64,000 bases of DNA, from the IMG/VR virus record IMGVR_UViG_3300044970_001982, positions 45,101-109,100 of that record; one strand, written 5' to 3'. The DNA is from a virus. Below are positions 5,101-57,754 of this stretch, piece by piece. Position 1 is the first letter of the stretch. Each line of letters begins with the position of its first letter. Position numbers and translations under genes: made by a program. The notes under the pieces were generated by a model that was not told the DNA's origin, ran no database searches, and worked only from the letters and a program-made list of their open reading frames with translations.

Positions 5101-7595
5101 TAGTTTGCTTTTCCTGTAAAATTGAAGTTAAAGCTGTAAGGAACATCGCTTCCTTCATACATGGTATATAGGGACTTTAGTCTAAATGGATATGAATTAA
5201 ACCCTAAAGATGGACTTAATAAGTTTGTTAAAGATCTTGATGAACTACTATTAACTGGCCTTTCGAGCAATATATGTGGGCCCAAACCTAGTATTCTTGA
5301 CAACGATCTACTATATTTTTGCGTGTATGCATATAGTGGTCTTGTGGCTGGATTTGAAGAACTTGAAGTATTTATCTTATATAACGTATAAGAAGAAGGA
5401 ATATCTACAGAAGCAGAATTTGGATCAGCTACTTTTGTAGAGTCTTTAATTGTTACATCTGGATTAGTAATTTCAACATAGAATTCAATGTCGTCTACAG
5501 ATAATTCTTCTATTATTGACCTTTGGAATTGCGACATCTTTAATGTAAGCTGTGATTTAAAGTAGTCAAATATGCTTGTATTAGTAGATGCTGAATTTTT
5601 CGTTAAATTCCTTGCATAAAGAGACGTACTAGAGTTTATTGATATAAGATCAAAATCCGGCTTTTCACTGTCTTCAAGAGCTGAGGAATACATAACCCAA
5701 GAGGAAGACCAGTCTGTAATAAAATTGATTATTGAAGAGGCCAAACTTGTTTGTCTCATCGACAGAGCTTTGCAATACATGGCGTATGAGATGGAGTTAA
5801 ACAACAACTTGAATGGCCCTTCTATAACAGAAGAAAATAGAGTTGTACTACTATTAATTGTACCAAAATGTGATGTTCCATTATTAATATTTAATACTTT
5901 GTCTGGATTTGCAATATCATAAATACTGTTACAGTATGACATTAGCCCAAATGTTGTGGCTAATATATTTCCTTTTGTAAGGCTATCATTTTGACGCGGA
6001 TATGATAATAGAACGCCAATTGACTTAAGATCAGAAGAACTAGGTCCAGCTTTAACAAATGTATTTGAACTTACTGCATTAGCAAAGTACTTATAGCTTT
6101 TGGGTGAAACTCCATTTATTTTACTAGAGCCTATAACGCTATAATAATTTTTTTCAAATATTGTATCATTTATAGTCCATCCACCATTTTTTGTTGCATC
6201 AATACAGATACTGCTATCTATCATGTCAACATTATTGGCTACTACAGAAGATGTCATATTTAGTTGTCCTCCGGAGTTTACATTAGATGCATTAGGGCAG
6301 AAGGACAGGTCTAGGATAAGTGTTCCAAAATTATTGGCAACAAAGTTATTTATAAGACTAGCTTGACTAGAAGTTATTGTAGAGTCAGGAGACCAAAGAA
6401 GCACATCGAATTGACTTAACTGGGCTGAAGTAACTGAGTCTATATTTACTTTCCAATAATTAGCTAAAGATTTGTCTGTTAATGTCGTAAGTGGATTTTC
6501 AAATACAAGCTTAGTTAAATTAAATGGAGAATTTTCTAATCTATACAAAACGTATGGATTAATATTTTGATTTGTTGAGCCTGAATAAAGAATTCCAGCT
6601 TTGACAGTTCTTATTCTAACTGGAGAATCTGGATTAGAATCTATTTCATAATCTATGTCTTGTAAATTAATATTTCTTCTTATTTTTCCTATTATTCTCC
6701 AATTGAAAACTTCATAATTTCTATAGTCTTTAATTGCCTTGCTTGGTACAAGAGCTTGATATCCGTTTGTTATAGAAACATGACCTGTGTTTACACTGGA
6801 ATAATTTTCGTCAATCTTTTTAATTGAAAAATTTCTAGATCCATAATAATTAGGATCTATAACAAAAGACTCTTCTGGAATATTATTAAAGTATTTAACA
6901 GCATTTATAGTTTCTGTATATCTTAACTGTTGATTGCTAAATTTTCCGTTTTCATCAGATTCAACTTTATTGTACATTAACTTAAGGTTTAAAGGATAGG
7001 AGCTATCCAGTACAACTATAACTCTGTATGGTATTTCCTCTAGATTAACGTTTGCACTAGTTTTATATGGTTCTAATAGAATCTTATATTTTTTTCTATT
7101 TGTATTTAGATCAATATAATCTTTTCCAAATTCATCTAAAACCTTTATGCCAAGATTATATATTTGATCTTGGTCAGGAAGATTGTTGTAAGATGTAAAA
7201 TTAAAAATTGCAGGAGCGGCAGTAAAGTATCTACTTATATAAACATAGTGACCAAAATCGTTAGCGTTTATTTCGGTAGGATTCAGTGTTTCAGATACTG
7301 TTGGCCTGTGTAGAAATAGGTTACTTATCGTAATGTCATCAGTTGATAATACTGATGATCCGTTCATTCTTCTTAAGATTCCCAACTCATCTGCGTACAT
7401 TAGTTCTGCGTCATAGGATTCTTTTATTTTATTTTCTAGAATTGTTTCTGAAACATTTACTGTAACTATGTTATTTTTTGGAGAAATTGATTCTGATGTA
7501 TACCAAGATAAAACTGCTGCGTCTGCAGGAACGTTTGTTCCTATTTTGATTGCTTTTTCATTTTCGTTTGTAGTAATGTTGGTAAATTTTTTCAT
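2124..7595 (-). CDS. Large baseplate/tail protein with an internal peptidoglycan-binding (PG_binding_1-like) domain
   Basis: 1823 aa, beta-rich. Segment VKYIQYTLAAAGKYKGAIDGSYGPVTAQAVYNFQ...DYKVDSET (~4720-4885) matches the PGBD DGxYGPxTxxAVxxFQ signature. Confidence 0.7.
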   Translation of the reverse strand: MKKFTNITTNENEKAIKIGTNVPADAAVLSWYTSESISPKNNIVTVNVSETILENKIKESYDAELMYADELGILRRMNGSSVLSTDDITISNLFLHRPTVSETLNPTEINANDFGHYVYISRYFTAAPAIFNFTSYNNLPDQDQIYNLGIKVLDEFGKDYIDLNTNRKKYKILLEPYKTSANVNLEEIPYRVIVVLDSSYPLNLKLMYNKVESDENGKFSNQQLRYTETINAVKYFNNIPEESFVIDPNYYGSRNFSIKKIDENYSSVNTGHVSITNGYQALVPSKAIKDYRNYEVFNWRIIGKIRRNINLQDIDYEIDSNPDSPVRIRTVKAGILYSGSTNQNINPYVLYRLENSPFNLTKLVFENPLTTLTDKSLANYWKVNIDSVTSAQLSQFDVLLWSPDSTITSSQASLINNFVANNFGTLILDLSFCPNASNVNSGGQLNMTSSVVANNVDMIDSSICIDATKNGGWTINDTIFEKNYYSVIGSSKINGVSPKSYKYFANAVSSNTFVKAGPSSSDLKSIGVLLSYPRQNDSLTKGNILATTFGLMSYCNSIYDIANPDKVLNINNGTSHFGTINSSTTLFSSVIEGPFKLLFNSISYAMYCKALSMRQTSLASSIINFITDWSSSWVMYSSALEDSEKPDFDLISINSSTSLYARNLTKNSASTNTSIFDYFKSQLTLKMSQFQRSIIEELSVDDIEFYVEITNPDVTIKDSTKVADPNSASVDIPSSYTLYKINTSSSSNPATRPLYAYTQKYSRSLSRILGLGPHILLERPVNSSSSRSLTNLLSPSLGFNSYPFRLKSLYTMYEGSDVPYSFNFNFTGKANYTVNATYKGKKEIDIPVGPKPATLPAENVKSGIDDYQTSRSTNVADASNIFPYTGDIDIHGDPRIWVQGSPTHEYVKYIQYTLAAAGKYKGAIDGSYGPVTAQAVYNFQVANNQRFKDYKVDSETKWYLALVWLIKRAFEGQKALDDWKAFATPDIRKYISKVETMSLAPDVNSGRPYRKITFTGTVGPKLGADILFMQVPSSMINVTGITITPDQQDARWRNFKVVSVGWGPTFETNIFKYSKLEALNLSAASGDINIPINNLEANSCRYIIVGIEGLAISPGFGQGEGFGISGIKINGTVDGGTETGYEDENTPISVDVEVVFSTSISDLSPSVPKNLNVRNVNELSRLSNYITSLSFGNSTIEIDEGELEIGSDGFENSRIKVESFTNSTGSVTLSNLSVSNIRTSTGAEVSSNAVSYTNTSNTITFDTSATYYGTSLVRTQPIDLSSNFRLKTLSGNILPSGKNTINYGDGVLLLCNDAGAPVGLPTYSQIRAAIDASTYQNISSQETDLRYGYFSVYNELPDDGIRYGFYDVSERKFLGNYINYIDLYSRSGEAFSRSSANIYIAICALDADGQSGDGEFFGLNNTNTFIPSRVPLKYLVPVYSVKYKSNTSINVGSISQNISKFDTWELPVSNGSFNKEIYIDPNIKWHDWKWNYMGQRLVGQYSTLDTPNIAWSTVFGYGYYDVVDENPSIIDTKTIQVRRAPIVAWNHPTDNLNSIVGIIKPEIKIYTRESISSAWVEVDYSIIKDVNCYTGLISFKKAIVPSSRSLIKVNYSTENNNLLLREVDGFPIPLNPLLNQETIRFDKPLYIYILPNNVYRYANYNESLLNGIPVSSLAYEKIDDYSYNSGINFTYDSSIFDSTSINYNPFALTIAVIYVTNKPNSIATNFVDLRVRGGGLRGDLDNSEILDSLNNNSLTEEYDVLSYWDVYPPQGNTYNRGGYVIIQIPQEVKENFVDPKQIYDVIRNNLTAGVVFDLQDLEGNSWS

Positions 7596-10500
7596 CAGTA
7601 TTCCTCATGATCCGGATGCAATAGCGAGTAGTCAACGACTATATTTGGAGTTGTTCCCATTATTCCCATCTGATACTGTGTATATTTATTTAACATAGTC
7701 CATACTGGGGGTTGCCAGTTTGGTGTTGTATCTAATGAATATAGTACCGATGGATTAGTGTGGTTGTAAACAAAATTAGGAGTTGCTATTAGCTCTGAAT
7801 TGTCTTGCTTGTTTACTGTATATATGTTTGGAAGCGGGATATCCGATTCATTGCTATATTGAATTGGGTCATAGGATTCATACCAATATATAACATCTCC
7901 AGCTATAGTAACGTCTGTTGAATCAACAGTTTCCCCATCTTCTTCTAAAAGATTTCGAACAATTTCATCATTAACTATATTAACTCTAGCAAACCAATAT
8001 CCTGGAGCGCCAACTTCCTGTGAAGTCATTGCAGTATCTATTTCAAAACTACCATCAGCCTGTGAGGTAATTAAATAATCTGGTGTTGCAGCAAAGAGGT
8101 CTTTTAGGGTTCTTGCCTTATTCCAAGCTATCTGAACTTCGTGGTTAAATGAATCATTTTTCCACAATATTTTTCCAGATATTCCTATTGAGCTAACTCC
8201 GTCGGCATTTACTATAAAATCTGTGGGAGCTGCTTTTATCCAAACTCTATTTGGTTCAGTTCTTCTAATATTAAAGGGTATACTTTCAACGTAAGATCCT
8301 GTCTGGCTATTAGATCCACCATTTGGTGTAGCCGATCCTATACCAGTAATGGTAATTGTTGAAGAAGTTACCTCGGCTGGCTGAGGACCTGTATATCTTA
8401 TGAGTGTTTTTGCTAATCCATTATCATTCGTTGTTACATAATTTGGTGTAGCTAATATTAGGTTACCTGAAATTTCAAAAGTTTGACCAGGCTTTATGTT
8501 ATCATTTTCATCATAAGAAACTATGGAGAGGTGCATTATGTCAGAGTATGCGTCGGAGATATACCCTGGAGATAGGTATGTTTCTGTATGAGAGAAATCA
8601 TATTCACTTAATGATACATAAACATACCCCTCATCAATGGGGTTAACATCTGGGCTTACATCTAAATCTATTGTCTGAGTATTGTCATTAATTGCTGATT
8701 CATATGTAATTGAATATATTTCTTCATAGTTAGGTGTTGTACTAAAGTAAATATATGTATTATATTCATCGTTTACAGAATCATAAACACGATTATCTAT
8801 ACTCCATGCCTGATTAACTGTATAAGTTACTTCATATTCTCTTCCAATAATTGATGGAGTTGACTGATCGAAGCACTCTAGCTTATTTGTTGCGGTTGAT
8901 AAATCTGAGAATAATATTTCGCCAGTATATTTATCTGCAACCGTAATATTAAATACATCTTCATAGGCTAAGTATAGCGAGTTGCCAAAATTCCCATAAA
9001 CAGACTCTGTATTTACAAAGGATAAATTACCAGGTGTTGCGCTATCTTCAAAAACTATATTTCTATACTGTGTTTCATGAACATTAACAATAATTGGAGA
9101 TCCGTTGGTAGGCGTAGAGTTCAACTTTATAGAGAAGAATTGACCATTAAATGTCTCTGTAACTGGTTCTGAATAAACGTAATATTCATCTTCATTTAAG
9201 AACAGATGGCCAGTGTGAATTGCTCTTCTCTTGGCCATTAGTGCAGCTGTGTCTTTTTTAGCATGCAAAGAGACTTCTATTGAATCAGAGTTTTCTACAG
9301 CGTTGTTTATGTTTTCAACTAGTTGATCCTTATTTTCTACGTATACAATAATATCATTTGTATCAGAAAGAAAGTTAATGTCTTTAATATCATATATATA
9401 TTCCAAGTTCAAATTAAAACTATTTGAATCTAAATTAATAGTCTTTAAAAATGTGTCTGAGTTGAAATAAGAAACTAAATATTGTTCCTCATTTTCATAA
9501 ACATTATCTAAAGAATCTATAAATCCACTGAACAACTGAGGTGTTGTTTGCGCTGAAAAAGAAAAATATTCCTCTCTATATAGAGGATAATAATTTCCAG
9601 ATGCCGACTCAAATTTAATATAACTTGGAGTAGATGAGAAGTTAATTGTTGCAGAATCAAAATACTGCGGAGTGGTTAGCTGAACTCCACTTTCATCATA
9701 AAATGAGTATAATATATTTGGCGAAGATGGAACAAGATATCTATTATTGTCTACAAAATCAACAACAGCACCACCAGCAGTGTTGTTAATTATATTGTCT
9801 GTGCCAAAGTAAGCCAACCCTACTGGTGCAGCAGAATTAATATACAAATACTCTGGAGTAGCGTTAGGTGGATATATGATTAGATCAACTAGATCATCTA
9901 CATATATAATTGGTGTTGTTAAACTCTGCTCAAACCTACTATTTCCTTCGTTCAAGTACACATAAGAAGATATTTGGTTAGTGTCTTGAATAAAGACATC
10001 ATCATTATATATGGTAGATCCTATTCTAAGATTAACATTATCTGCAGTTATATTTGGAGATGCTATAGATGTTTCTGTTCCAGCAGAAGGATTTACATAG
10101 TAGTTTGGAGTGGATAGATTAAATCCCCCCCAATAATCGCCAATGTCAATAGTTGTATCATAATCTTGAGTTAGATAATCCCAACCACCATTAGAAAATA
10201 CTATCTTAACTTGAGATACATCTTCTATAGATATAGAAGAGAAATTAGGGGATGATGGGTTGTTGTATACTTCATTGTATGTTTTATCTCTAAACTCAAT
10301 ATCATTTAAAGTATTACCTTCTTGCGTGAATATCTTAATAAGATTAAATTCTGGACTTGATACATGATCCTGTCCATATCTATTGTAAACATAAAAATCT
10401 TCTCTATTCAAATAGTTAAGATTTGCATAGAATGTCGATGGAGTGGCGTAATTTGCATGCGCTTTGGTTGTTACCTCATAGGTAAGCCCAACTCCACCAT

Positions 10501-12160
10501 CTATACTTTCTACTGAATAACTACTTGCTGTTTGCAAGTAAGATAGATACCAAGAAAAATCTAACTTAATTGGATTATAATAAGTTTTGTCAGCGCTTCT
10601 GTATACACCAGATATCTCAGCATAGCCGTCAAAAGATATGGTAGATTTTTCTACTGACTCAACTATAAGTCTTGCATCAGAGAAATCTCCAATACCAGGT
10701 TGATATAGATCTGTTAATGGAGAAGATGCCGCATCATATATTGCAGATATTCTAGATACGCCTTCATTTTCCATTCCAGCGTAATCCCAGATTCCCTCTT
10801 CCCATCTTACGTATCCAATATTTGTGGGATATCTTTTATTTATGTCTAATACTATGTCTTTAAATTTTTGAAGAGGTATTCCAGAATCACTAAAATATGG
10901 AGTTGATACTTCCATATCTGAAATTTCAATAATTTCTGGAGTTGCACCTGCGTAGTCAGAGTCTGGAGTAGCTCCATACGCTTTCCATATGTCCAGTTCT
11001 CGTCTTAAGGTTCTTTGAAGTGCTTCTTTGTATACTCCAGGTAAATTTCTGTAAACGTCTAATATTCTCTTTTTATATCTCGAATTATCTTCAAGGAATA
11101 ATCTTGGCAGACCGACTCTGACTCCAAACTCATCAAAAATATTAAAAACATTTGTTGGATATTGATCAAACGCAATTCCATTAACCAATAAAGAATCATA
11201 TTGTCTAATGGTTAAAATTTGCTTATCTATAGGATTATAGAAATACGCATGATCTGTTGGTTTTAAGTTGTAAAAATAACCAAGATCATGAACTGCAGAT
11301 AGCTTTACGCCATCTCCAACTACACCAATTACATTGACGGGAATATTATACGAAACATAAACCCAGGTTAATATTTCCTCATTCGCGCTTGCTATATAAT
11401 TATTTATATTTTGTAAATCTATTTTAGTTACAAATTGATCTATAGAATCTTGCAAAAGTGCTGAAAGGAACTTTCCTCCAGAAGAATTTGGAGTAGCTGT
11501 ACTTGGTGTAGCATTTTCTTCTGAGTCTTCAAAAAGCGAAGTCCATGTAGGGAATCTTCTTAATATATTTTTAGTATTTTGAGATACTACAGGAGACGTA
11601 ATATCGTGAATGCCAATCTCTAAATAAAATAGCAAACCTAAGTCAGATGTATTTCCAGTTTCTGTAAATATTTCTAACTCAATTTTAATCCAAGGCTTAG
11701 AGTTTCTAATAAATATTGCATTAGAATCAAAGGAAACTTTAGACTGAAGCCATGGACCATTTTCTTCGTCTGATTCATATATTTGAATATTAAAAGTTGG
11801 GACTTCGTCTCCGGCAACATTGGTAAATGTATGCTTATAGGCTAAGATATCTATTCTAGAACTTGTATCTACGAACCTGAGTAAGTCAGGGGTTGCAGCA
11901 TCATATATAACTTCTCCGGCATCTGTCATATAAACAGAGTTCTGGACTAATGGTGTTGCGTGGTCTTCCGAGAAAGAGGGGGAGGTTAACTCTATTCCGG
12001 TATAAATATTGTCACCAATAAGGTTTAAGCCATATCTAGACCGAGTGTATGAATAGTTGGTATAAGCTGTATTATGGTACAGGTTAATTGGATTACTGGT
12101 CCAGACATTACTGGACTTATTAAAATCTGAACTTCTCAGAAGTAACAAATATTGTTTCAT
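7595..12160 (-). CDS. Large baseplate wedge/tail protein with Ig-like regions, rich in Ala-Thr-Pro motifs
   Basis: Follows baseplate J; FDEFGVRVGLPRLFLEDNSRYKKRI resembles the wedge LDxxGxxxGxxR...ExDxxYRxRI motif; ATG at 12160 preceded by AAGG. Confidence 0.65.
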   Translation of the reverse strand: MKQYLLLLRSSDFNKSSNVWTSNPINLYHNTAYTNYSYTRSRYGLNLIGDNIYTGIELTSPSFSEDHATPLVQNSVYMTDAGEVIYDAATPDLLRFVDTSSRIDILAYKHTFTNVAGDEVPTFNIQIYESDEENGPWLQSKVSFDSNAIFIRNSKPWIKIELEIFTETGNTSDLGLLFYLEIGIHDITSPVVSQNTKNILRRFPTWTSLFEDSEENATPSTATPNSSGGKFLSALLQDSIDQFVTKIDLQNINNYIASANEEILTWVYVSYNIPVNVIGVVGDGVKLSAVHDLGYFYNLKPTDHAYFYNPIDKQILTIRQYDSLLVNGIAFDQYPTNVFNIFDEFGVRVGLPRLFLEDNSRYKKRILDVYRNLPGVYKEALQRTLRRELDIWKAYGATPDSDYAGATPEIIEISDMEVSTPYFSDSGIPLQKFKDIVLDINKRYPTNIGYVRWEEGIWDYAGMENEGVSRISAIYDAASSPLTDLYQPGIGDFSDARLIVESVEKSTISFDGYAEISGVYRSADKTYYNPIKLDFSWYLSYLQTASSYSVESIDGGVGLTYEVTTKAHANYATPSTFYANLNYLNREDFYVYNRYGQDHVSSPEFNLIKIFTQEGNTLNDIEFRDKTYNEVYNNPSSPNFSSISIEDVSQVKIVFSNGGWDYLTQDYDTTIDIGDYWGGFNLSTPNYYVNPSAGTETSIASPNITADNVNLRIGSTIYNDDVFIQDTNQISSYVYLNEGNSRFEQSLTTPIIYVDDLVDLIIYPPNATPEYLYINSAAPVGLAYFGTDNIINNTAGGAVVDFVDNNRYLVPSSPNILYSFYDESGVQLTTPQYFDSATINFSSTPSYIKFESASGNYYPLYREEYFSFSAQTTPQLFSGFIDSLDNVYENEEQYLVSYFNSDTFLKTINLDSNSFNLNLEYIYDIKDINFLSDTNDIIVYVENKDQLVENINNAVENSDSIEVSLHAKKDTAALMAKRRAIHTGHLFLNEDEYYVYSEPVTETFNGQFFSIKLNSTPTNGSPIIVNVHETQYRNIVFEDSATPGNLSFVNTESVYGNFGNSLYLAYEDVFNITVADKYTGEILFSDLSTATNKLECFDQSTPSIIGREYEVTYTVNQAWSIDNRVYDSVNDEYNTYIYFSTTPNYEEIYSITYESAINDNTQTIDLDVSPDVNPIDEGYVYVSLSEYDFSHTETYLSPGYISDAYSDIMHLSIVSYDENDNIKPGQTFEISGNLILATPNYVTTNDNGLAKTLIRYTGPQPAEVTSSTITITGIGSATPNGGSNSQTGSYVESIPFNIRRTEPNRVWIKAAPTDFIVNADGVSSIGISGKILWKNDSFNHEVQIAWNKARTLKDLFAATPDYLITSQADGSFEIDTAMTSQEVGAPGYWFARVNIVNDEIVRNLLEEDGETVDSTDVTIAGDVIYWYESYDPIQYSNESDIPLPNIYTVNKQDNSELIATPNFVYNHTNPSVLYSLDTTPNWQPPVWTMLNKYTQYQMGIMGTTPNIVVDYSLLHPDHEEY

Positions 12161-12176
12161 CAATTAACCTTAATTT

Positions 12177-43781: not shown

Positions 43782-45017
43782 TTATAGATTAATGGCTACT
43801 CTGACTTCGATTTCTTTGAGCTCGAAGGCAGGTGTTAAAATGAGGTCTACAATCGCCTTATTTTCGTTTGGTATATAAGAGACTGTAAAGTCACTACCAA
43901 GTAAGGCTCCTACTATTTGCATTCCTCTCAAGCCAGATGTTATTGCTGTTTCCATTGCATTGCGTGTTTGAATGTTTGATGGCTCACCAACAAATCTCTG
44001 GCAGGCTTGTCTTACAACTGATGTTGCGTCGTCAACAATTCTCTTTGTTGAGAGACGTGTGTAATCTGATGTTGACCAAGCAAATGTTAGGCCTTCACCA
44101 AATACTGGAATCTTGTTAAAGTTTATAATTACAGAGTTAACGCCCTTTGTTCCCAAAGCTGCCTGCTGAGTTCTTGTTGGAGCGTAGCGAACAGAATCTA
44201 TGTTGTACAAAGGCTTATTAACTACTGAGCTATAAGAAGGATTTAGGCTCATAGTTGCAGCTAAGTTAGCTGCACCATTTGAGTATCCAAATTCTGTTGT
44301 GCCAGATACATAATTAACTGGCTTAACCTCTGATGCTACGATTGTAACATATGGTCCAACTTCCTTAAGAAGATCACTGGCGTCACGATCTGGCAATGAG
44401 CTAACAGCTAAGTGTGAGTTAACCTGACCAGGAGTCATTGTTTCTGAAGCTCCTGTATAGGGCTTGATTCCCATAACGGCGACGCATGGGTTAATATTCT
44501 CTGAAATGTCCTTAACCTTAGCTGCTACCTTATAGGCCCAGTTGCTAGTTACTGTGGCACTATTATCTGCATAGAAACCAAATTCTGGAGAACTTGGAGT
44601 AGCTGCCCATTCATCTGGATGAGCGCCTCTTCCCCATGGAATAATAACATCAGGAATAACAGCTTCAGCTGCAATGAATGCAGCGTCAAAAACACTGCCG
44701 CCATATGAGCTACTTGTTACTGTTCCGGTACTATGGGTCCATGTTGTATCGCTTGGCAACGGAACAATATACACTCTGCCGGCACCAGCTAAAATAAGTT
44801 CTAGGTAGGCGCGGTGAGCATCTGAGCCATCGCCAAATGCAGTGATAACATCAGCCTCATTAGAGGCTCTAACGACATCAAGATCAGCTACAGAACCTGT
44901 GCCACTGGCGGTACTACGCTTGGCAATCGCAACGATTCTGGGACCAACTGGTGTGTCCTGACGTGAGACGCTATAGAAGCGATCTCTTATTAAAGTTTTT
45001 ACTCCAGGTGTAGCCAT
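43782..45017 (-). CDS. Major tail sheath protein
   Basis: N-terminal MATPGVKTLI (PGV motif); C-terminal DYTRLSTKRIVD...FVGEPSN...LTPAFELKEI; GGAGG RBS. Confidence 0.88.
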   Translation of the reverse strand: MATPGVKTLIRDRFYSVSRQDTPVGPRIVAIAKRSTASGTGSVADLDVVRASNEADVITAFGDGSDAHRAYLELILAGAGRVYIVPLPSDTTWTHSTGTVTSSSYGGSVFDAAFIAAEAVIPDVIIPWGRGAHPDEWAATPSSPEFGFYADNSATVTSNWAYKVAAKVKDISENINPCVAVMGIKPYTGASETMTPGQVNSHLAVSSLPDRDASDLLKEVGPYVTIVASEVKPVNYVSGTTEFGYSNGAANLAATMSLNPSYSSVVNKPLYNIDSVRYAPTRTQQAALGTKGVNSVIINFNKIPVFGEGLTFAWSTSDYTRLSTKRIVDDATSVVRQACQRFVGEPSNIQTRNAMETAITSGLRGMQIVGALLGSDFTVSYIPNENKAIVDLILTPAFELKEIEVRVAINL

Positions 45018-45131: not shown

Positions 45132-46094
45132 TTATGTATTGGGTGTTGCATTTTGGAATAGATCAACTATATTTCCAGTTGTTCCTTCAATATTTGGTGT
45201 AGCCAATTGATTTCTTAATAGATCTCGTTCATATGCCATCCACATTCTTGCATCTACAGCTATCGACTCTATTCTTTCATTCTTAATTGCATACGTCTTT
45301 TCTGTTGTTAACATATATGTAACAGTTCTTTTGTGTATGTCACTTCCAGCTCTATTAATTTCTGAGTCAGCCAATCTTCTAGAATAGAATAACTCCGATG
45401 CTCCAGCTGCTTTAAATATTGGAGTATACTCAATCATAAAATCTTCAAATGCCTCAATAATCTGATCACACAAAACTGCAGCGTCTAGATCGTCTCTTGT
45501 TGTTGTTTCTCCATTAAATCCCTGAAAAGTTCCAACTTTAGCCATTACAGTAAAGCCAATTACATTTTGAAATCTTTGGCCATAAATTGTGTAATGATTA
45601 TTAGCTGAACTAACAATATTTTGTCTCATTCTTGGTTTTGGTTCTGTTGTATGAGATTTTCTTAACTCTAGGTGATATCCAATTATTGCTGGATATTCAC
45701 CAATATTTGGAACGGTATCATTTGGTGCGGAAGAAATATCTGACACACCTGATGATGAATTAAATCCGACTCCAGATGTTGAACCCTGAGAATATAAGTC
45801 TCCATCTCCTAGTGTCTTTGCTTGCCAAACATTTGTTGAGTCTTGATAAGAAACGCTTGACTCACGATTTATTGACATTGGCAAAATGGGTATTAATGGA
45901 TTTGAATCTTCCCATAGTTTTTTAACTAAACTAATAAATTCTAAGTATGTTAAATTACCAGAATAGATTTCTTCAATTCCATCTTCATCTACTCTTCTAT
46001 AACCGGGAGCTTGCAATGATTCGACTCCAAACTGTCTTTGAACACCATAGAAGTGAGTTTGATAAGTGGGAAAGCCTCTGTTTATATAAACCAT
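45132..46094 (-). CDS. Putative tail completion/terminator (neck) protein
   Basis: Position between adaptors and sheath; KPRMRQ...GQRFQNVIGF pattern. Confidence 0.5.
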   Translation of the reverse strand: MVYINRGFPTYQTHFYGVQRQFGVESLQAPGYRRVDEDGIEEIYSGNLTYLEFISLVKKLWEDSNPLIPILPMSINRESSVSYQDSTNVWQAKTLGDGDLYSQGSTSGVGFNSSSGVSDISSAPNDTVPNIGEYPAIIGYHLELRKSHTTEPKPRMRQNIVSSANNHYTIYGQRFQNVIGFTVMAKVGTFQGFNGETTTRDDLDAAVLCDQIIEAFEDFMIEYTPIFKAAGASELFYSRRLADSEINRAGSDIHKRTVTYMLTTEKTYAIKNERIESIAVDARMWMAYERDLLRNQLATPNIEGTTGNIVDLFQNATPNT

Positions 46095-46095
46095 T

Positions 46096-47691
46096 TTATG
46101 CTCCGGGTCCTGCTGCTAAACTAAAGTTTACCCTCTTTAATCCAAGAGAAGAAATTAGTTCAATTTCAAATATTAATTTTCCTGAATTTATTTCACTAGT
46201 GTCTATTCCAAGTGAAAAATCTATAATTATATTTTTATTCTTTAAACTCAATAAGAATAGTTTAGTGTCAGAAATTATTCTGTCATAATTAATCATGTCA
46301 AAATTTGACAAACATATACCTTTTACTTCACTAACGACTAAAGAAACTAATCTCATCTGCGCAGTTTTTGAAAAAACAGAATCTGGACTAGCCATTGTGT
46401 ATTCATTGGTTAAATATACTTCAAATGGAACTGCTCTTCTTGTCTTCTTTCCTCTGTATAGAGTATTGATACCAAGCTGTTCTAATTGCTCATACTCTGA
46501 GAAAGTTAAATCAGCTCCATATAAAGACATTGCTCCGGGAATTCTTGTTCTTATTAAAGACTTATTTAAGCTTGCTGATGCTAACATTCCAGCAACAGCG
46601 GTAGCAGCAGTTGAGGTATAACTAACCTTAAGTTGAGGATGCTGAAAAACAAGTTCTCCATAAACTGGAATAACATATCTTCCTTTATCAGAAATTATTT
46701 GAGTACCGTAAGCGTACTGAGTGAGTTTATCTGTAAAAATATAATCTTCTTTTAAAAGATCTATATCTGATGATTTTATTCCGTTTGAACGAGAGCCAAT
46801 AATTCCCATCTGAACATTTCCTGTTGTATTATGAAAATTATTTAGATAATCTGCTAACTGTATAATAAAATCAACATCTCCAGTATTTATAATAGACGTT
46901 TCTAGTGGAACTATTATGTCTATAAAATCTAAATTAATAATAGATTCATAGGTTTCTGCTAACCGATCATAATATCTCTCGTAAAAGTTTTGAGAACTGG
47001 GGGTTGCATCATTTAAACTAAATAAAGTTGTTTCTATTAATCGATTATCGTATTTATCTACATACTCTATCATTGGCGCAGCAGCGCATATCATAATGTC
47101 TCTAGCTCCACAAGAGTATGCGTCTAATACACCTCTTAATAATGGACTATTAATATTTCCATTTAACAGATCAATTGCGTGCTGAATGGAATTTATTTTT
47201 ACTGGAAAATTTAATTCTATTCCATCTGCGTGGCCTACTAAAAGTATCGTATTTGTATTAGATCTATTTAATTGCTCATATGTTGGATTATAATTTATAA
47301 TACCAGATTTAGGAGCAACAACTGAAGTTGGAGATAATGAAGATGTTCCAGCTTTTACCTGAAAAGGTGAGGCTACATTAATTGTTTGTACCTCAGAAGA
47401 TGTTCTTGCTATTACTGAATATTTATATTCAAATAAACTTTGAGGAACTGTGTAATGAAAAGTATATTCTCCAGCAGAAATTCGTTCTATTCTATTTCCA
47501 GTTTCTTCTGGATCCTGATTCAAAAGAGAGTATGGCCCATCTATTAGTGCGCCACCTGCGGACTCACCTCTCAAAACATATACTACTACATCTACTGGGG
47601 TAGCTAATCCTGCTGGATCGTATATACTTCCATCATAATCTGTAAATATGAATTTGAACTGAGCGGATTGTCCCTTAGTTAAAACTAACAT
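46096..47691 (-). CDS. Second sheath-like protein with N-terminal Ig-like domain
   Basis: ILLVGHADG...SPLLRGVLDAYSCGARDI...LEQLGINTL...MRLVSLV resembles the sheath; likely ATG at 47691. Confidence 0.65.
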   Translation of the reverse strand: MLVLTKGQSAQFKFIFTDYDGSIYDPAGLATPVDVVVYVLRGESAGGALIDGPYSLLNQDPEETGNRIERISAGEYTFHYTVPQSLFEYKYSVIARTSSEVQTINVASPFQVKAGTSSLSPTSVVAPKSGIINYNPTYEQLNRSNTNTILLVGHADGIELNFPVKINSIQHAIDLLNGNINSPLLRGVLDAYSCGARDIMICAAAPMIEYVDKYDNRLIETTLFSLNDATPSSQNFYERYYDRLAETYESIINLDFIDIIVPLETSIINTGDVDFIIQLADYLNNFHNTTGNVQMGIIGSRSNGIKSSDIDLLKEDYIFTDKLTQYAYGTQIISDKGRYVIPVYGELVFQHPQLKVSYTSTAATAVAGMLASASLNKSLIRTRIPGAMSLYGADLTFSEYEQLEQLGINTLYRGKKTRRAVPFEVYLTNEYTMASPDSVFSKTAQMRLVSLVVSEVKGICLSNFDMINYDRIISDTKLFLLSLKNKNIIIDFSLGIDTSEINSGKLIFEIELISSLGLKRVNFSLAAGPGA

Positions 47692-47692
47692 A

Positions 47693-48064
47693 TTACTTCT
47701 CTCTTGTAGCGCCAACTACCCAATAATTAATTTTCCCCTGACGACCCCTTACTGCTGTAACTGCGTCTATTCTAAATAAGGTGTAATTCTTAGATGCTTT
47801 TAAGGAGAAGTTTTCGTATATTCTATCTCCTTCTTTGGGATATATGTGATCCTCAAAATAATAAACGGCGTCATAATTAGTGTAAAGACCTTCTGGAAAT
47901 TCTTGAGAAGCGTTGGCGTTTGATGTTCCTGATTGACCTACCTGTCTGGTGGTCACTCTTTCAAATTGATTAGCGTGGTTGCCATTAGCCAATATTCTTT
48001 GAACATAAACGTCATGACCCCATTCACGAAGTATTTTCTTAAATGATCTTCTAATATCAATCAT
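47693..48064 (-). CDS. Head-closure / head-tail adaptor (SPP1 gp16-like)
   Basis: About 123 aa from MIDIRRSF; PKEGDRIY...FRIDAV beta pattern; neck position. Confidence 0.55.
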   Translation of the reverse strand: MIDIRRSFKKILREWGHDVYVQRILANGNHANQFERVTTRQVGQSGTSNANASQEFPEGLYTNYDAVYYFEDHIYPKEGDRIYENFSLKASKNYTLFRIDAVTAVRGRQGKINYWVVGATREK

Positions 48065-52058: not shown

Positions 52059-52469
52059 CTATAGTGTAAATATTTTATTAATTGCATTACTCCAGTTTAT
52101 AGTAATTGATATTGCTGAAGAACTAGATGAAACTGGTAAACCATCTGCTGTATCTATATAAGCTATTAATCTGGATGTAGATGCTACTCCAGTGTCTTTA
52201 AATAAAACTACATAATTAAAACCACTTGTGCCATAATCTTCTATGGTAATATTATCCGCGTCGAAAATACCGTTTGCGGTAGTTTTATCTACTAATGCGC
52301 TGCTAGTTGCAGCTATATTACTAGATCCTATGTCAGATAAAAATTGATGCGCTTCCAAATCAACAGTGTAACTATTTTTTACTAAACATACTTTTAATGT
52401 ATCATCAGTTAAGTCTAATAAGCCTTCTAAAAAGGCTTCCTTAGCTTTTTTGTATAGTGAATTAGCCAT
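52059..52469 (-). CDS. Small virion structural protein
   Basis: 136 aa; DLTDDTLKVCLV...FDADNI...LIAYID...ITINW pattern common in phage structural modules. Confidence 0.6.
   Translation of the reverse strand: MANSLYKKAKEAFLEGLLDLTDDTLKVCLVKNSYTVDLEAHQFLSDIGSSNIAATSSALVDKTTANGIFDADNITIEDYGTSGFNYVVLFKDTGVASTSRLIAYIDTADGLPVSSSSSAISITINWSNAINKIFTL
52096..52105 (-). promoter_or_regulatory. Putative late promoter box TTACTATAAA
   Basis: Inside the 3' end of the 136-aa ORF, 46 nt before ATG 52050. Confidence 0.4.
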
Positions 52470-53242
52470 TAAATACCTACTTCAGCGGAAACTATTACTC
52501 TGTATTTATATCCTGTTTCAAAGTATTCTTTATCTTCGGTGTAATAAACAGGTGTTGCATCTGTTGATGGAAAGTCAACGTAAACATCTGGTTTCCAAGA
52601 GTGTAGCGAGATTTGCGCATTAACACTTTCCCATCTAGATGGCGTCTTTTGGATTTTTTTCCTCTGAGCCTTAAAGTATTTAGATGTTAGAAAGTTTGAT
52701 GCCGGACGTGAACTGAATGTTATTGTCACTCTACCATTGTTTTCATCATTGTTAAGATAAAAATCTCCACTAGTAGGATTTGTTGACTCTATATAGAAAT
52801 TTGGATTTTTAGCTAATATTTGATATCCAGTTTCTATATCTACCCTAACAGACTTATCTTCAATTAAGACTTCATTAATAACCGTACCCTGAGTTTCTTG
52901 AAGAATTGAGGGTGTGGCAGAACTTGTCTGGCTAGTGAATGTTATTCTTTCTTCTGGAACAGTTAAACCTGATGAGTCTAATAAGTTATTTATCTTTAAA
53001 ACATAATCTGTATTTGAACTTAATACAGTGTTCCAATAAAGAGTTAATGTTCTGCTTATTTGATTATAATCAGTTAGTGTATTTATTGTTCTAAAAGGAG
53101 AAGACACCGAAACTGGAGTAGCTGTATCTGTTTGTACAGTAAAGTTAGCATTAACTAATGATGCTATTTTTATGGTTCTACCAAACTTAATGTTTACTGT
53201 ATTGATAGTTACAGTTGCATTATCAATTAAATATAGCGCCAC
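52469..53242 (-). CDS. Ig-like domain virion (head decoration) protein
   Basis: Two beta-sandwich-like halves (VNIKFGR...LSSNTDYVLKI; VTITFSSRP...YKYRVIV); GTG start with GGAG RBS. Confidence 0.6.
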   Translation of the reverse strand: MALYLIDNATVTINTVNIKFGRTIKIASLVNANFTVQTDTATPVSVSSPFRTINTLTDYNQISRTLTLYWNTVLSSNTDYVLKINNLLDSSGLTVPEERITFTSQTSSATPSILQETQGTVINEVLIEDKSVRVDIETGYQILAKNPNFYIESTNPTSGDFYLNNDENNGRVTITFSSRPASNFLTSKYFKAQRKKIQKTPSRWESVNAQISLHSWKPDVYVDFPSTDATPVYYTEDKEYFETGYKYRVIVSAEVGI

Positions 53243-53271
53243 TCAACACACTCCATAATCAAAACTATAAA

Positions 53272-53280
53272 TAATAGTAA
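53272..53280 (-). promoter_or_regulatory. Putative late promoter box TTACTATTA
   Basis: Intergenic, just past the capsid terminator and 30 nt before GTG 53242. Confidence 0.55.
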
Positions 53281-53294
53281 CAAATTACTCAGAT

Positions 53295-53334
53295 AAAAGC
53301 ATAGGGGACGGCAGATTTCTCATACCGTCCCCTA
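53295..53334 (-). terminator. Rho-independent terminator after the major capsid gene
   Basis: Perfect 10-bp inverted repeat TAGGGGACGG (53302-53311) / CCGTCCCCTA (53325-53334), followed on the minus strand by TGCTTTT. Confidence 0.8.
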
Positions 53335-53376
53335 GCTTTAGGGCTTATTCGTAACTATAACAACCCTAAGGTTTTA

Positions 53377-54435: not shown

Positions 54436-54474
54436 CTTAGGATTATTCCTCCTGTGTTATTGTTTTTGTTATTA

Positions 54475-55245
54475 TCAGAGTGTCAAATTGACGCGGAAGG
54501 CACCAATGACATGGTCTACATCTAGGTTTGCACGAATGCCAAGCTTGCCGTTGTATGTTCCACTACGGGTAAGCTCGTACACTGTCTTAAGTGCACCTGG
54601 ATCTGATGGTAGCTGCATGTAGCTAAGGAGGCCGTCATCGAAGTTTGTAGCAAACTTTTCGACTTCAACAACCTTACCAACCTGCAAGTAGGCGTATACA
54701 GCTGAGCTATTATAGAAATCAGCTGCAGCTGCTGCTACTGGGCGTCCCATGTGGTCGGCGCGAATTAACGAACCAACTGTCACGTCTGCATTAATGCCAT
54801 CCACCATTGGATACTCTACATAACCATGAGTAATGAAACCTGCACCTTGTGAGGTACCCTTATCAAAGGGTCTGTAGAGATCATATTGTGCGCAGCCGAT
54901 TGGAATCGAACGAGCTGGAACTGTGACTGTGTCATCTGAACCAGTTGTCGATGTTGGTGTAGCGCCATCAAGTGGATCCCAGCTTGGCATTACATCGCCC
55001 CAGCCCTTGCTGGATGATGTACCGTTAGCTGGTACTACTCTGGCGTCACCGTTTGAATCGGCAACCACGGAAAGAATGGTACCCTTAGGAATGACGATCT
55101 CAAAGCGATCATCTTCGCTATCCAAATACCATGTAGGAAGACCTGGGTGTGGAAGCAAGTATGCTGAGGGAGCGACGCCCTCAGAAACAACAAAACGTCC
55201 TGAACCGGTCTTGCTATGTACCTTGCGGAACTTTGCTAAACTCAT
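54475..55245 (-). CDS. Capsid decoration/cement protein
   Basis: 256 aa between scaffold and MCP; IVIPKGTILSV...VVPANG, PIGCA, QVGKV; same codon bias as MCP. Confidence 0.7.
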   Translation of the reverse strand: MSLAKFRKVHSKTGSGRFVVSEGVAPSAYLLPHPGLPTWYLDSEDDRFEIVIPKGTILSVVADSNGDARVVPANGTSSSKGWGDVMPSWDPLDGATPTSTTGSDDTVTVPARSIPIGCAQYDLYRPFDKGTSQGAGFITHGYVEYPMVDGINADVTVGSLIRADHMGRPVAAAAADFYNSSAVYAYLQVGKVVEVEKFATNFDDGLLSYMQLPSDPGALKTVYELTRSGTYNGKLGIRANLDVDHVIGAFRVNLTL

Positions 55246-55263
55246 TTTATTTCTCCTTAATTA

Positions 55264-56898: not shown

Positions 56899-56925
56899 TA
56901 TAATCCCCTGTAAAATAATTCTATT

Positions 56926-56935
56926 TTTATAGTAA
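56926..56935 (-). promoter_or_regulatory. Putative late promoter box TTACTATAAA (protease-decoration-capsid operon)
   Basis: Intergenic, 28 nt before ATG 56898. Confidence 0.6.
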
Positions 56936-56974
56936 GTTTCTTTTTATAACATTGAACAATTTTATATAAATATA

Positions 56975-57754
56975 TCACACTTTAGCATAGTTTTTATTTG
57001 CTATCAAATTTCTGTCGTCACCATTCTTTAAAAAAGAGTCATACATAAATTCAGACATTATGTGAGGAGCATAAATATAAGATGCGGAGTATAGTTCATA
57101 ACCTTTATTTTTACAATTTAAAGACCAACCAACATCTTCACCTTGTTCATGAACAGAATACTCAATATTTTGATATACATTTTTGCTCATCATTTTGGCG
57201 GCCATAATAACATCTGACTTAAAATAAGTTCCTAAGTCATACTTTTCTTTTCTATATGCTTTATTTGGAACATCTTCTCTCCAATTCATGACGCTTGGAT
57301 ACATTGTTCCAATTGGAGTCATAAACATAAGTGGACTTACTGCATCTGCTCCGGACTTAATATGTGCTATTAATAATTCCATAGTATTTGGATTTGTTAA
57401 TAGAATATCTGAGTCTAAGCTAAAGTAGTATTCTGGAGAAACATCTCTAACAGTTTCTAATAGAGAGTTTCTTAACGACACCATATTTACATATTTAGAC
57501 ATAGTCCATTGTCTGCCATTATTTTCGTGCTGAAAATGAGGAATGTCTTCTCTAATCTTTATGTTGAAGTAAGGAATTCTCTTATCAAATCTTTTCCATG
57601 CCTCTAATGAATTAATTGTGTCTTGATCATCAGGGGAAACTTCAAAAATAAAACCAACATCTTTTAAAGATACAGATTGATTTATTAGGCATCTAATCCA
57701 GTGTGGCAAAAGCCATGTTCTCTTGTAAGTTGGACAGCCTATTACTAACTTCAT
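56975..57754 (-). CDS. GT-A fold (family 2-like) glycosyltransferase
   Basis: LVIGCPTYKR N-terminus, LRNSLL, YYFSLDSDILL (DxD), GEDVGWS, C-terminal His. Confidence 0.85.
   Translation of the reverse strand: MKLVIGCPTYKRTWLLPHWIRCLINQSVSLKDVGFIFEVSPDDQDTINSLEAWKRFDKRIPYFNIKIREDIPHFQHENNGRQWTMSKYVNMVSLRNSLLETVRDVSPEYYFSLDSDILLTNPNTMELLIAHIKSGADAVSPLMFMTPIGTMYPSVMNWREDVPNKAYRKEKYDLGTYFKSDVIMAAKMMSKNVYQNIEYSVHEQGEDVGWSLNCKNKGYELYSASYIYAPHIMSEFMYDSFLKNGDDRNLIANKNYAKV

What the first reader, a model, noticed from the sequence alone, without database searches (positions are those of the whole stretch)
7595..57754. Ala-Thr-Pro motif enriched in outer virion proteins plus a head-module glycosyltransferase: possible sequon-directed virion glycosylation system
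Seen (manual count): ATP occurs 13 times in the 1522-aa baseplate protein, where roughly 0.3 is expected from composition, plus about 11 STP/TTP. It also occurs 3x in the 257-aa Ig protein, 2x each in the sheath, second sheath and 320-aa neck protein, and once each in the MCP (SGATPA), decoration protein (DGATPT) and 1823-aa protein. I found none in the ~7500 aa of the three giant putative ejected/hub proteins. Codons vary (GCA ACA CCA, GCT ACT CCA, GCC ACT CCA, GCA ACC CCT), so it is a protein-level signal and not a DNA repeat. A DxD GT2-like enzyme sits between portal and protease. Established: some mycobacteriophages glycosylate capsid and tail proteins using glycosyltransferases encoded among structural genes, and O-glycosylation often favours Thr next to Pro. 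Inference: A-T-P is a recognition sequon for O-glycosylation across the virion surface. It could instead be a docking site for a decoration protein or another modifying enzyme.
Basis: partly seen in the sequence, partly recalled or inferred. Interest (0 to 1): 0.85.

Follow-up and report, generated by a model that had tools for sequence, protein, structure and literature searches.

The report
Candidate sugar-attachment motif on phage virion
Six particle proteins of this uncultured aquatic phage carry the short word Ala/Ser/Thr-Thr-Pro far more often than chance, and the excess travels with three phage sugar-transferase genes, so it is probably a sugar-attachment tag, although no chemistry has been done.

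Summary
The counts are correct. The 1522-aa protein has 13 ATP, 6 TTP and 5 STP. All 24 of its Thr-Pro pairs follow Ala, Ser or Thr (P about 3e-16). ATP is the most enriched tripeptide in the genome.

The signal sits in six virion proteins, not across the virion. ATP in the capsid protein and the 1823-aa protein is chance. Its absence from the three giant proteins is not significant.

The motif holds at the protein level across more than 120 homologs down to 36% identity. It also keeps arising at new positions and lies in loops before beta-strands. At the same positions, relatives without the glycosyltransferase (GT) lack it but often keep the Pro.

The gene between portal and protease is a real GT-A enzyme with an invariant DxD. 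Two GT2 genes outside the window travel with it. One resembles GmaR, the Listeria flagellin O-GlcNAc transferase.

These three GTs are the only genes shared with an unrelated phage group, and that group also has ATP-biased tail proteins. Three relatives without the head-module GT show no bias. Two phages with only remote or partial GT sets also show none.

Verdict: a candidate O-glycosylation sequon, well supported by comparison but chemically unproven. Other agents of this scan noted analogous motif-plus-GT cases, with different motifs, on other DNA.

The parts
7595..12163 (-). 1522-aa peripheral baseplate or fibre-arm protein. The N-terminal part is homologous to 0305phi8-36 gp162. The rest is a chain of Ig/FN3-like beta-sandwich domains. 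It carries 24 [AST]-T-P sites (13 ATP, 6 TTP, 5 STP).
   Evidence: Counts. Family-wide enrichment in 120 homologs. Positional conservation and T-to-S swaps. Turnover (71 alignment columns). AF2 model with sites in loops. Foldseek matches to lambda gpJ, intimin/invasin Ig domains and an S-layer. gp162 homology.
52469..53242 (-). 257-aa Ig-like virion protein just downstream of the MCP, with three ATP sites.
   Evidence: Three ATP are conserved in 35 unique relatives. Relatives at only 35-40% identity still carry 2-3 [AS]TP. There is a weak Big_5 Pfam hit.
54475..55245 (-). 256-aa protein between the protease/scaffold gene and the MCP, in the position of the 0305phi8-36 head-decoration protein gp124. 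It has one G-A-T-P site.
   Evidence: ATP is invariant in 41 unique relatives and sits inside a variable loop. In the wider clade it has 1/1 or 2/2 TP as [AS]TP in nearly all members, with one exception. Synteny with gp123-gp125.
45132..46094 (-). 320-aa virion structural protein with two C-terminal ATP sites.
   Evidence: Two ATP are conserved in G006, G008 and G010 (47-67% identity). It hits the PHROG 'virion structural protein' family.
43782..45017 (-). 411-aa tail-sheath-like protein with two ATP sites, one at residues 2-4.
   Evidence: PHROG tail sheath hits. One to two ATP in the three relatives. The aligned position in the Moorella phage reads ALP.
46096..47715 (-). 539-aa tail-sheath paralog with two ATP sites. 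It is the least conserved carrier.
   Evidence: Pfam and PHROG sheath hits. Zero to two ATP in relatives.
56975..57754 (-). 259-aa GT-A fold glycosyltransferase with a DxD motif (S112-x-D114-x-D116), inserted between the portal and protease/scaffold genes.
   Evidence: AF2 pLDDT 94.6. Foldseek top hits are COLGALT1, the LH3 GT domain, mimivirus R699 and Mnn9. Profile hit to COLGALT1 at 4e-8. Homologs hit Pfam GT2 and Anp1. Invariant residues. It is 66-95% identical in 80 IMG/VR relatives. In 0305phi8-36 the portal and protease genes are adjacent, so this gene is an insertion.

Best explanation
[Ala/Ser/Thr]-Thr-Pro is an acceptor signal for O-glycosylation of a defined subset of virion proteins. 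It often follows Gly or Ser and precedes Asn/Ser/Asp and a hydrophobic beta-strand.

The proposed machinery is a cassette of three phage-encoded, soluble, cytoplasmic glycosyltransferases:
- the GT-A enzyme in the head module (window 56975-57754);
- a GmaR-like GT2 (genome 29310-30002, outside the window);
- a chondroitin-synthase-like GT2 (genome 31503-32294, outside the window).

Proposed mechanism, all inferred. Late in infection one enzyme puts the first sugar on the Thr hydroxyl in a short exposed loop just before a beta-strand. The best candidate is the GmaR-like GT2, with the head-module GT-A as the alternative. The other two enzymes extend the glycan. The result is a sugar coat on the baseplate arm, an Ig-like head protein, the head-decoration protein, a 320-aa structural protein and the sheath proteins.

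What is shown: the motif statistics, its conservation and turnover, its loop location, the nature of the GTs, and the co-occurrence of motif and GTs.

What is inferred: that Thr is modified, which enzyme starts the chain, what the sugar is, and what the coat does.
For: 1. Statistics. 24 of 24 TP follow A/S/T in the 1522-aa protein (P = 3e-16). The five smaller carriers have 10 ATP against 0.54 expected (P = 3.5e-10). All other proteins are at baseline, 5 against 5.65.
2. Family-wide conservation. 120 homologs at 36-92% identity each have about 20-25 TP, 80-100% of them after A/S/T. Some sites are nearly invariant (88/88, 87/88). Where the motif changes, the replacement is often A/S-Ser-Pro.
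3. Continuing creation. ATP occupies 71 alignment columns, 35 of them in three or fewer sequences. Its five permutations occupy 6-31 columns and other xTP 3-17.
4. Not required by the fold. None of 11 aligned motif positions in relatives without the head-module GT is [AST][ST]P. Several of those positions keep the Pro (ILP, VLP, ALP, GKP).
5. Location. 13 of 14 sites in confident model regions lie in loops, usually 2-5 residues before a strand (P = 5e-4).
6. Enzymes. The head-module gene is a GT-A with DxD, and its best fold matches are protein (collagen) glycosyltransferases. The profile of the 230-aa GT2 matches the whole GT domain of GmaR, the flagellin O-GlcNAc transferase, at E = 8.5e-12, followed by SunS-type peptide glycosyltransferases (GmaR function from PMC9638930).
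7. Co-occurrence. The three GTs are the only genes shared with 9-10 of 10 contigs of an unrelated phage group. In that group, four contigs carry tail proteins in which TP is almost always ATP: 6/6, 5/6, 4/6, and in G001 4/6 and 6/11. In the wider clade related to the window (GT identity 43-79%), the decoration and Ig-like proteins keep the motif while the portal has almost none.
8. Negative controls. 0305phi8-36, Moorella MTATph1 and Acinetobacter ME3 lack the head-module GT and show no bias.
Against: - No chemical evidence exists, and no cultured member or host is known.
- The archaeal virus PhiF1 has a 25%-identical homolog of the head GT in the same head-module position but shows no enrichment.
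- GX15bay has the GmaR-like and the second GT2 but no detectable head-type GT, and shows only 11 ATP against 5.8 expected.
- G002 carries all three GTs and is estimated complete, yet has no strongly biased protein.
- The co-occurrence rests on only two GT-positive lineages and one GT-negative lineage.
- A bare tripeptide would be a promiscuous target for a cytoplasmic enzyme, yet ATP is neither avoided nor enriched in non-virion proteins (3 against 2.6).
- The likely distal fibres lack the motif.
- Loop location before a strand is also what a Pro-containing structural motif would show.
- Phage GT clusters can instead modify DNA or host glycans (discussed in PMC12619734).
- The COLGALT1 match covers its N-terminal GT domain (chain residues about 42-160). 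From my own knowledge this may be the non-catalytic domain.
Confidence: 0.5

Rival explanations
1. The motif is structural or assembly-related and carries no modification. [AST]-T-P would be a lineage-specific loop or beta-strand N-cap device in beta-sandwich and other virion domains, or a docking or chaperone-recognition element. The GTs would then do something unrelated.
For: The sites sit in loops immediately before beta-strands, and hydrophobic residues follow. Pro is kept at several equivalent positions in relatives without the GT. Many sites are positionally conserved. The 1522-aa protein is a chain of similar beta-sandwich domains.
Against: The same tripeptide is enriched in at least six unrelated folds here and in non-homologous tail proteins of a second lineage. 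The fold tolerates other residues in relatives without the GT: 0 of 11 positions keep the motif. New sites keep arising. There is no periodic position within domains. No generic structural rule requires A, S or T before Thr-Pro, and control phages show the expected 21%.
Confidence: 0.2
2. The motif is recognised by a different enzyme or partner, and the GTs are coincidental. Candidates are a proline-directed Ser/Thr kinase, a prolyl hydroxylase or isomerase, or another host or phage modifying enzyme.
For: Thr/Ser-Pro is the classic core of proline-directed kinase sites (own knowledge). T-to-S swaps fit any hydroxyl-directed modification. G000 is probably only about half of the genome, so other enzymes may be unseen.
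Against: No kinase, hydroxylase or isomerase is shared between the two motif-bearing lineages. Only the three GTs are, even when the 84%-complete G010 is used. A host enzyme would have to be shared by the hosts of two unrelated phage groups with GC contents of 36% and 41-51%.
Confidence: 0.12
3. The GT cassette modifies phage DNA or a host envelope glycan, and the ATP motif is an unrelated lineage peculiarity.
For: Virus-encoded GTs commonly hypermodify DNA or alter host serotype (PMC12619734 and the papers it cites). Two of the three GTs lie among replication and nucleotide-metabolism genes (RNR, ThyX, helicase). The 263-aa GT2 resembles sugar-polymer synthases.
Against: One GT is embedded in the late head operon in this clade and in PhiF1. 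One resembles a protein O-GlcNAc transferase and peptide glycosyltransferases. No hydroxymethylase-type base-modification gene was seen among the genes scanned (the scan was not exhaustive). This reading does not explain why the motif and the GTs co-occur.
Confidence: 0.13

Closest known systems
Mycobacteriophage virion glycosylation (Che8-type; Freeman et al. 2023, Cell Host Microbe; known here only through its citation in PMC12619734, because the paper itself is not held)
   Same: Phage-encoded glycosyltransferases located with structural genes are proposed or shown to put glycans on virion proteins.
   Different: As summarised in PMC12619734, those glycans sit at the C-termini of the capsid and tail-tube subunits. 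Here the candidate sites are an internal tripeptide in loops of baseplate, decoration, Ig-like and sheath proteins, and the capsid protein is not a conserved carrier. Homology between the GTs was not tested. The host phylum differs or is unknown.
GmaR of Listeria monocytogenes (flagellin O-GlcNAc transferase; PMC9638930; PDB 22ao)
   Same: The phage 230-aa GT2 family aligns over the whole GmaR GT domain (E = 8.5e-12). Both are soluble cytoplasmic enzymes that would act on a protein destined for an extracellular assembly.
   Different: The phage protein is the GT domain alone. It has no TPR, linker or antirepressor domains. No [AST]-T-P acceptor rule for GmaR came up in what I read.
SgtA-BclA3 of Clostridioides difficile (PMC7157674)
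   Same: A GT-A-type cytoplasmic enzyme adds O-GlcNAc to Thr (Ser is also accepted) in a short repeated Pro-containing context (Gly-Pro-Thr) of a surface structural protein. Several phages carrying these GTs also encode (Gly-Ala-Thr)n collagen-like proteins.
   Different: In SgtA substrates Thr follows Pro within collagen triplets. Here Thr precedes Pro in globular beta-sandwich loops. SgtA has TPR repeats. Sequence similarity to SgtA was not tested.
COLGALT1 / LH3 collagen hydroxylysine glycosyltransferases and mimivirus R699 (PDB 9evj, 8zgc, 6fxr, 9dyt)
   Same: These are the best fold matches of the head-module GT (TM-score 0.73 on the query, E = 2e-17). They are protein-directed GT-A enzymes.
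   Different: Sequence identity is only 11-17%. Their acceptor is hydroxylysine in collagen. No lysyl hydroxylase was seen here. The aligned COLGALT1 part is its N-terminal GT domain.
Chlorovirus PBCV-1 major capsid protein glycosylation
   Same: Virus-encoded cytoplasmic GTs glycosylate virion proteins at virus-specific, non-canonical sequons.
   Different: That is a eukaryotic virus with N-linked glycans on the capsid protein and unrelated enzymes.

Membership tests
GT-A fold, metal-dependent (DxD) glycosyltransferases | Single Rossmann-like GT-A fold | tested here: met
   The AF2 model has pLDDT 94.6. At least 500 Foldseek matches have E <= 0.001, and all those listed are GT-A enzymes.
GT-A fold, metal-dependent (DxD) glycosyltransferases | DxD motif after the fourth beta-strand | tested here: met
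   S112, D114 and D116 are invariant in 69 homologs. E206, D207 and H231 are also invariant.
GT-A fold, metal-dependent (DxD) glycosyltransferases | Sugar-nucleotide-dependent transfer activity | not testable with these tools
   This needs an enzyme assay.
GmaR-type cytoplasmic protein O-GlcNAc transferases | Sequence homology across the GT domain | tested here: met
   The profile of 10 phage sequences matches GmaR residues 11-191 at E = 8.5e-12. A single sequence gives 1.3e-6.
GmaR-type cytoplasmic protein O-GlcNAc transferases | TPR substrate-recognition domain following the GT domain | tested here: not met
   The phage protein is 230 aa and Pfam finds GT2 domains only. It is therefore not filed as a GmaR orthologue, only as a relative of its catalytic domain.
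GmaR-type cytoplasmic protein O-GlcNAc transferases | O-GlcNAc on Ser/Thr of a structural protein | not testable with these tools
   This needs mass spectrometry.
Phage virion glycosylation systems (mycobacteriophage type) | GT gene(s) encoded among or next to virion structural genes | tested here: met
   The GT lies between the portal and protease/scaffold genes in all 80 IMG/VR relatives and in the wider clade.
Phage virion glycosylation systems (mycobacteriophage type) | Glycans on the C-termini of the capsid and tail-tube subunits | tested here: not met
   The candidate sites are internal. The MCP site is not conserved. Only the 320-aa protein has C-terminal sites.
Phage virion glycosylation systems (mycobacteriophage type) | Glycan chemically detected on virions | not testable with these tools
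   No isolate exists and no proteomics is available.
Glycosylation sequon (short acceptor motif) | Over-representation restricted to substrate proteins | tested here: met
   The six carriers have 23 ATP against 0.8 expected. The other proteins have 5 against 5.65.
Glycosylation sequon (short acceptor motif) | Conservation of the motif beyond its flanks, plus gain and loss at new positions | tested here: met
   T and P are more conserved than their neighbours. The GATP of the decoration-like protein is an island of conservation in a variable loop. ATP occupies 71 alignment columns against 6-31 for its permutations.
Glycosylation sequon (short acceptor motif) | Sites solvent-exposed | tested here: inconclusive
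   13 of 14 sites lie in loops of the model. Coordinates and solvent accessibility were not available.
Glycosylation sequon (short acceptor motif) | Motif present only where the enzyme is present | tested here: inconclusive
   For: two GT-positive lineages carry it and three relatives without the head-module GT do not. Against: PhiF1, GX15bay and G002 show little or none.

The most novel reading that the evidence does not exclude
A portable cassette of three small soluble glycosyltransferases, together with the tripeptide code [A/S/T]-Thr-Pro, forms a programmable virion-glycosylation system. It has spread between unrelated aquatic phage lineages. Phages write new glycan sites onto existing x-x-Pro loops of baseplate, head-decoration and sheath proteins by point mutation.
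Probability: 0.4. Interest if true: 0.8.

Novelty: new variant of a known kind. Interest (0 to 1): 0.62.

Why it matters
Virion glycosylation has been shown chemically only for a few mycobacteriophages, and my literature searches found no defined acceptor motif.

If this reading is right, it would give:
- a simple, testable sequence rule for which phage proteins are glycosylated, and where;
- a minimal three-enzyme set that could be tested in E. coli;
- a way to predict glycosylated virions directly from metagenomes. The family is abundant in freshwater and marine data, with hundreds of contigs.

A sugar coat on baseplate arms and head decorations could affect adsorption, particle stability, protease resistance or recognition by grazers and immune systems. 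A compact sequon and transferase pair would also be of use for glyco-engineering. If the reading is wrong, the strict A/S/T-Thr-Pro rule still needs a structural or enzymatic explanation.

Tried and rejected
- DNA-level motif or repeat. Rejected: the pattern is in frame in 13 of 14 cases, absent from the opposite strand of the gene, and uses the gene's ordinary codons.
- Tandem or periodic protein repeat. Rejected: site spacing is irregular (5 to 175 residues) and the flanks are unrelated.
- MCP and 1823-aa protein as carriers. Rejected: their ATPs are not conserved in relatives.
- Depletion in the giant internal proteins. Not significant: 0 against 1.2 expected.
- Pfam and PHROG scans of the head GT itself gave nothing significant. 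Its identity came from homolog profiles and structure.
- Single-protein scans of viral contigs with P0123 and P0150 found nothing. The scan of genome contigs with alignment A1 failed for lack of a conserved stretch.
- With alignment A2, only 7 MAG contigs in 185,579 species genomes carry the family, so no cultured host system was found.
- The Freeman et al. 2023 paper is not held.
- PhiF1 and GX15bay were tested as possible further positive lineages, and neither shows the enrichment.
- No homolog of the 1522-aa protein exists in the second lineage, so the two lineages' carrier proteins are independent.
- The model gave secondary structure only, so solvent accessibility could not be computed.


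Full report
**What the window is.** The window is the right-hand 64 kb of a single 109.1-kb viral contig. All genes lie on the minus strand. The major capsid protein is about 40% identical to those of Bacillus phage 0305phi8-36 and its relatives. Gene order matches that phage: portal, protease/scaffold, decoration protein, capsid, sheath proteins, giant internal or hub proteins, baseplate, fibres. Related IMG/VR contigs of 98-177 kb are rated only 47-84% complete. The contig is therefore probably about half of a genome near 200 kb.

**The observation.**
- The 1522-aa protein (window 7595-12163) has 13 ATP, 6 TTP and 5 STP. These are all 24 of its Thr-Pro dipeptides, and P = 2.9e-16 given 22.5% A+S+T.
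- Over the whole contig, ATP is the most enriched of about 8000 tripeptides: 28 observed against 6.5 expected.
- The excess is confined to six proteins. These are the 1522-aa protein plus the 411-, 320-, 539-, 257- and 256-aa proteins; the five smaller ones have 10 ATP against 0.54 expected.
- Every other protein taken together is at baseline, 5 against 5.65. The 45-kb non-structural part has 3 against 2.6.
- The signal is at the protein level. The DNA pattern is in frame in 13 of 14 cases, and codons at the motif follow the gene's general usage.
- Zero ATP in the three giant proteins is not significant (P = 0.30).
- The likely distal fibre proteins have many TP that are not preceded by A, S or T.

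**Conservation and turnover.**
- In 120 homologs of the 1522-aa protein (36-92% identity), each has about 20-25 TP against 4-7 expected. Typically 80-100% of them follow A, S or T.
- In an alignment of 88 full-length members, some sites are nearly invariant: query T1143 in 88/88, T219 in 87/88, T1043 in 82/88. A, S and T interchange at position -1.
- Where the motif is lost, the commonest replacement is A/S-Ser-Pro.
- T and P are more conserved than their neighbours. The extended logo is [S/G]-[A>S>T]-T-P-[N/S/D/G]-hydrophobic.
- ATP occupies 71 different alignment columns, 35 of them in three or fewer sequences. Its five permutations occupy 6-31 columns and other xTP 3-17. New sites therefore keep being created.
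- The three ATP of the 257-aa Ig-like protein are conserved in close relatives. So is the single GATP of the 256-aa decoration-like protein, where it is an island in a variable loop.
- Both persist across a much wider clade whose GT is only 43-79% identical to the window's. In that clade the portal protein has almost no [AS]TP among its 1-5 TP.
- The ATPs of the capsid protein and the 1823-aa protein are not conserved.

**Structure.**
- An AF2 model of residues 330-1522 has mean pLDDT 75.7 and is good between about residues 500 and 1430. It is a chain of beta-sandwich domains.
- Its fold matches are the lambda gpJ tail tip, intimin/invasin Ig domains, an archaeal S-layer and FN3 arrays.
- Thirteen of 14 motif sites in confident regions lie in loops, usually 2-5 residues before a strand (P = 5e-4).
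- This fits an exposed acceptor, but it also fits an ordinary Pro-containing turn. Solvent accessibility could not be computed.

**Is the motif required by the fold?** No. Eleven motif positions are covered by alignments to Bacillus phage 0305phi8-36 or Moorella phage MTATph1. None is [AST][ST]P there. Several keep only the Pro (ILP, VLP, ALP, GKP) or are deleted. The A-T part looks as if it was written onto pre-existing x-x-Pro loops in this lineage.

**The enzymes.**
- The 259-aa gene between portal and protease has no significant Pfam or PHROG hit of its own.
- It has 590 homologs, and some of these hit the GT2 and Anp1 families.
- A profile of the family hits COLGALT1 at 4e-8.
- The AF2 model (pLDDT 94.6) is a GT-A fold. 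It is closest to COLGALT1, the LH3 glycosyltransferase domain, mimivirus R699 and Mnn9.
- S112, D114 and D116 (the DxD), E206, D207 and H231 are invariant.
- In 0305phi8-36 the portal and protease genes are adjacent, so the GT is an insertion.
- Outside the window the contig encodes two more GT2 enzymes and a GT-D-like protein.
- The 230-aa GT2 family matches the whole catalytic domain of GmaR, the Listeria flagellin O-GlcNAc transferase, at E = 8.5e-12. SunS-type peptide glycosyltransferases follow (GmaR function from PMC9638930).
- The 263-aa GT2 resembles chondroitin and heparosan synthases, which transfer sugar to sugar.
- The GT-A family is essentially virus-only. It gives 7 hits, all on MAG contigs, among 185,579 species genomes.

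**Co-occurrence: the second lineage (group B).**
- Distant homologs of the head GT (29-35% identical to the window's GT) lie in a second group of phages. Its members share 10-58 proteins with each other but only 3-6 with this contig.
- The only genes shared with 9-10 of 10 of those contigs are the three GTs.
- There the GTs sit together in clusters of up to eight GTs with a UDP-glucose dehydrogenase and an FkbM methyltransferase.
- These phages have no homolog of the 1522-aa protein.
- Four of the ten contig fragments nevertheless have tail-fibre-like proteins in which TP is almost always ATP:

| Contig | Protein | ATP of TP | Bonferroni P |
|---|---|---|---|
| G011 | 903 aa | 6 of 6 | 5e-7 |
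| G005 | 603 aa | 5 of 6 | 5e-5 |
| G014 | 607 aa | 4 of 6 | 1e-3 |
| G001 | 463 aa | 4 of 6 | 4e-3 |
| G001 | 798 aa | 6 of 11 | not calculated |

- The first three proteins are homologous to each other. The G001 proteins are not homologous to them. The other fragments lack these proteins.

**Co-occurrence: close relatives and controls.**
- In three further contigs of the window's own family, ATP is again the top-ranked tripeptide.
- Negative controls were the first 100 kb, including the structural modules, of 0305phi8-36, Moorella MTATph1 and Acinetobacter ME3. All three lack the head-module GT.
- They show ATP at 4/5.0, 14/7.9 and 7/4.0, A/S/T before TP at exactly the expected rate, and no biased protein.

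**Counter-examples.**
- Methanobacterium virus PhiF1 has a 25%-identical GT homolog in the same head-module position but no enrichment.
- GX15bay belongs to the second group and has the two GT2s but no detectable head-type GT. It shows only a weak excess.
- G002 carries all three GTs and is rated complete, yet has only a diffuse excess of [AST]TP, 51 against 31.7.
- The association therefore rests on two positive lineages and one negative lineage. It is suggestive, not proven.

**Interpretation.**
- The best reading, at about 50%, is a phage-encoded O-glycosylation system whose acceptor is Thr in [A/S/T]-T-P loops of six virion proteins.
- One enzyme would start the glycan. The GmaR-like GT2 is the best candidate and the head-module GT-A is the alternative. 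The others would extend it.
- Precedents for soluble GT-A/GT2 enzymes glycosylating Thr in short Pro-containing contexts of surface structural proteins are GmaR with flagellin (PMC9638930) and SgtA with BclA3 (PMC7157674).
- Virion glycosylation itself is known from mycobacteriophages (Freeman et al. 2023, as cited in PMC12619734). No acceptor motif of this kind turned up in the literature searches.
- The rivals are: a purely structural or assembly motif (about 20%); recognition by another enzyme (about 12%); and GTs that act on DNA or host glycans with an unrelated motif (about 13%).
- Other agents of this scan have reported analogous sequon-plus-phage-GT cases with different motifs on other genomes. 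I treat these as unverified leads, not support.

Noticed in passing
outside the window: genome 29310-30002, 31503-32294 and 28664-29299 (L160:4310-5002, 6503-7294, 3664-4299, minus strand): There are three more glycosyltransferase genes among the replication genes. One is a GmaR-like GT2, one is a chondroitin-synthase-like GT2, and one is a GT-D-like protein (Pfam hit just below the curated cut-off). The first two travel with the head-module GT in an unrelated phage group.
   Followed up: yes
G004:C1:39102-40691 and 60902-62965; G011:C1:36887-39013; G015:C1:24906-27032; G008:C1:1-1809: Phages carrying these GTs often encode collagen-like proteins dominated by Gly-Ala-Thr triplets, with up to 95 G-x-y repeats. 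The best fold matches of the head GT are collagen glycosyltransferases. These repeats may be a second class of acceptor, by analogy with BclA3 and SgtA.
   Followed up: partly
window 49352-51709 (minus strand): This 785-aa fibre-like protein is very rich in Thr (17.8%), Gly, Ala and Ser, has only 1.1% Pro, and has no Thr-Pro at all. The syntenic gene in relatives (L109:18030-20705, L117:10038-13019) is not homologous by BLAST and carries six [AS]TP sites.
   Followed up: partly
L239 (MK994522.1) 14903-15610: The archaeal myovirus PhiF1 has a homolog of the head GT in the same place, between the putative packaging/portal genes and the capsid gene, but its proteins show no [AST]TP bias.
   Followed up: yes
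L094 (G001:C1:36503-57201): This is a large phage glycan-synthesis island. It has at least eight GTs (GT2, a GT11-like fucosyltransferase and one with a Glyco_transf_7C domain), a UDP-glucose dehydrogenase and an FkbM methyltransferase.
   Followed up: partly
whole contig (G000, 109.1 kb): CheckV estimates for related contigs (98-177 kb rated 47-84% complete) imply that this record is roughly half of a jumbo-phage genome near 200 kb. Genes reported as absent here may simply be off the contig.
   Followed up: no
window 2-7595 and the upstream 714- and 733-aa genes (genome 40266-44608): The likely distal tail-fibre proteins (867 aa, of which 707 aa lie in the window, and 733 aa) have 9 and 7 Thr-Pro, of which only 0 and 1 follow A, S or T. 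The motif skips the parts most likely to bind the host.
   Followed up: partly
L244 (JBDNFI010000110.1, 35-kb contig of a Cyclobacteriaceae MAG): A contig with a GT of this family (34% identical to the group-B query P0150) is binned with a Bacteroidota (Cyclobacteriaceae) MAG. This is a weak hint at the host phylum.
   Followed up: no
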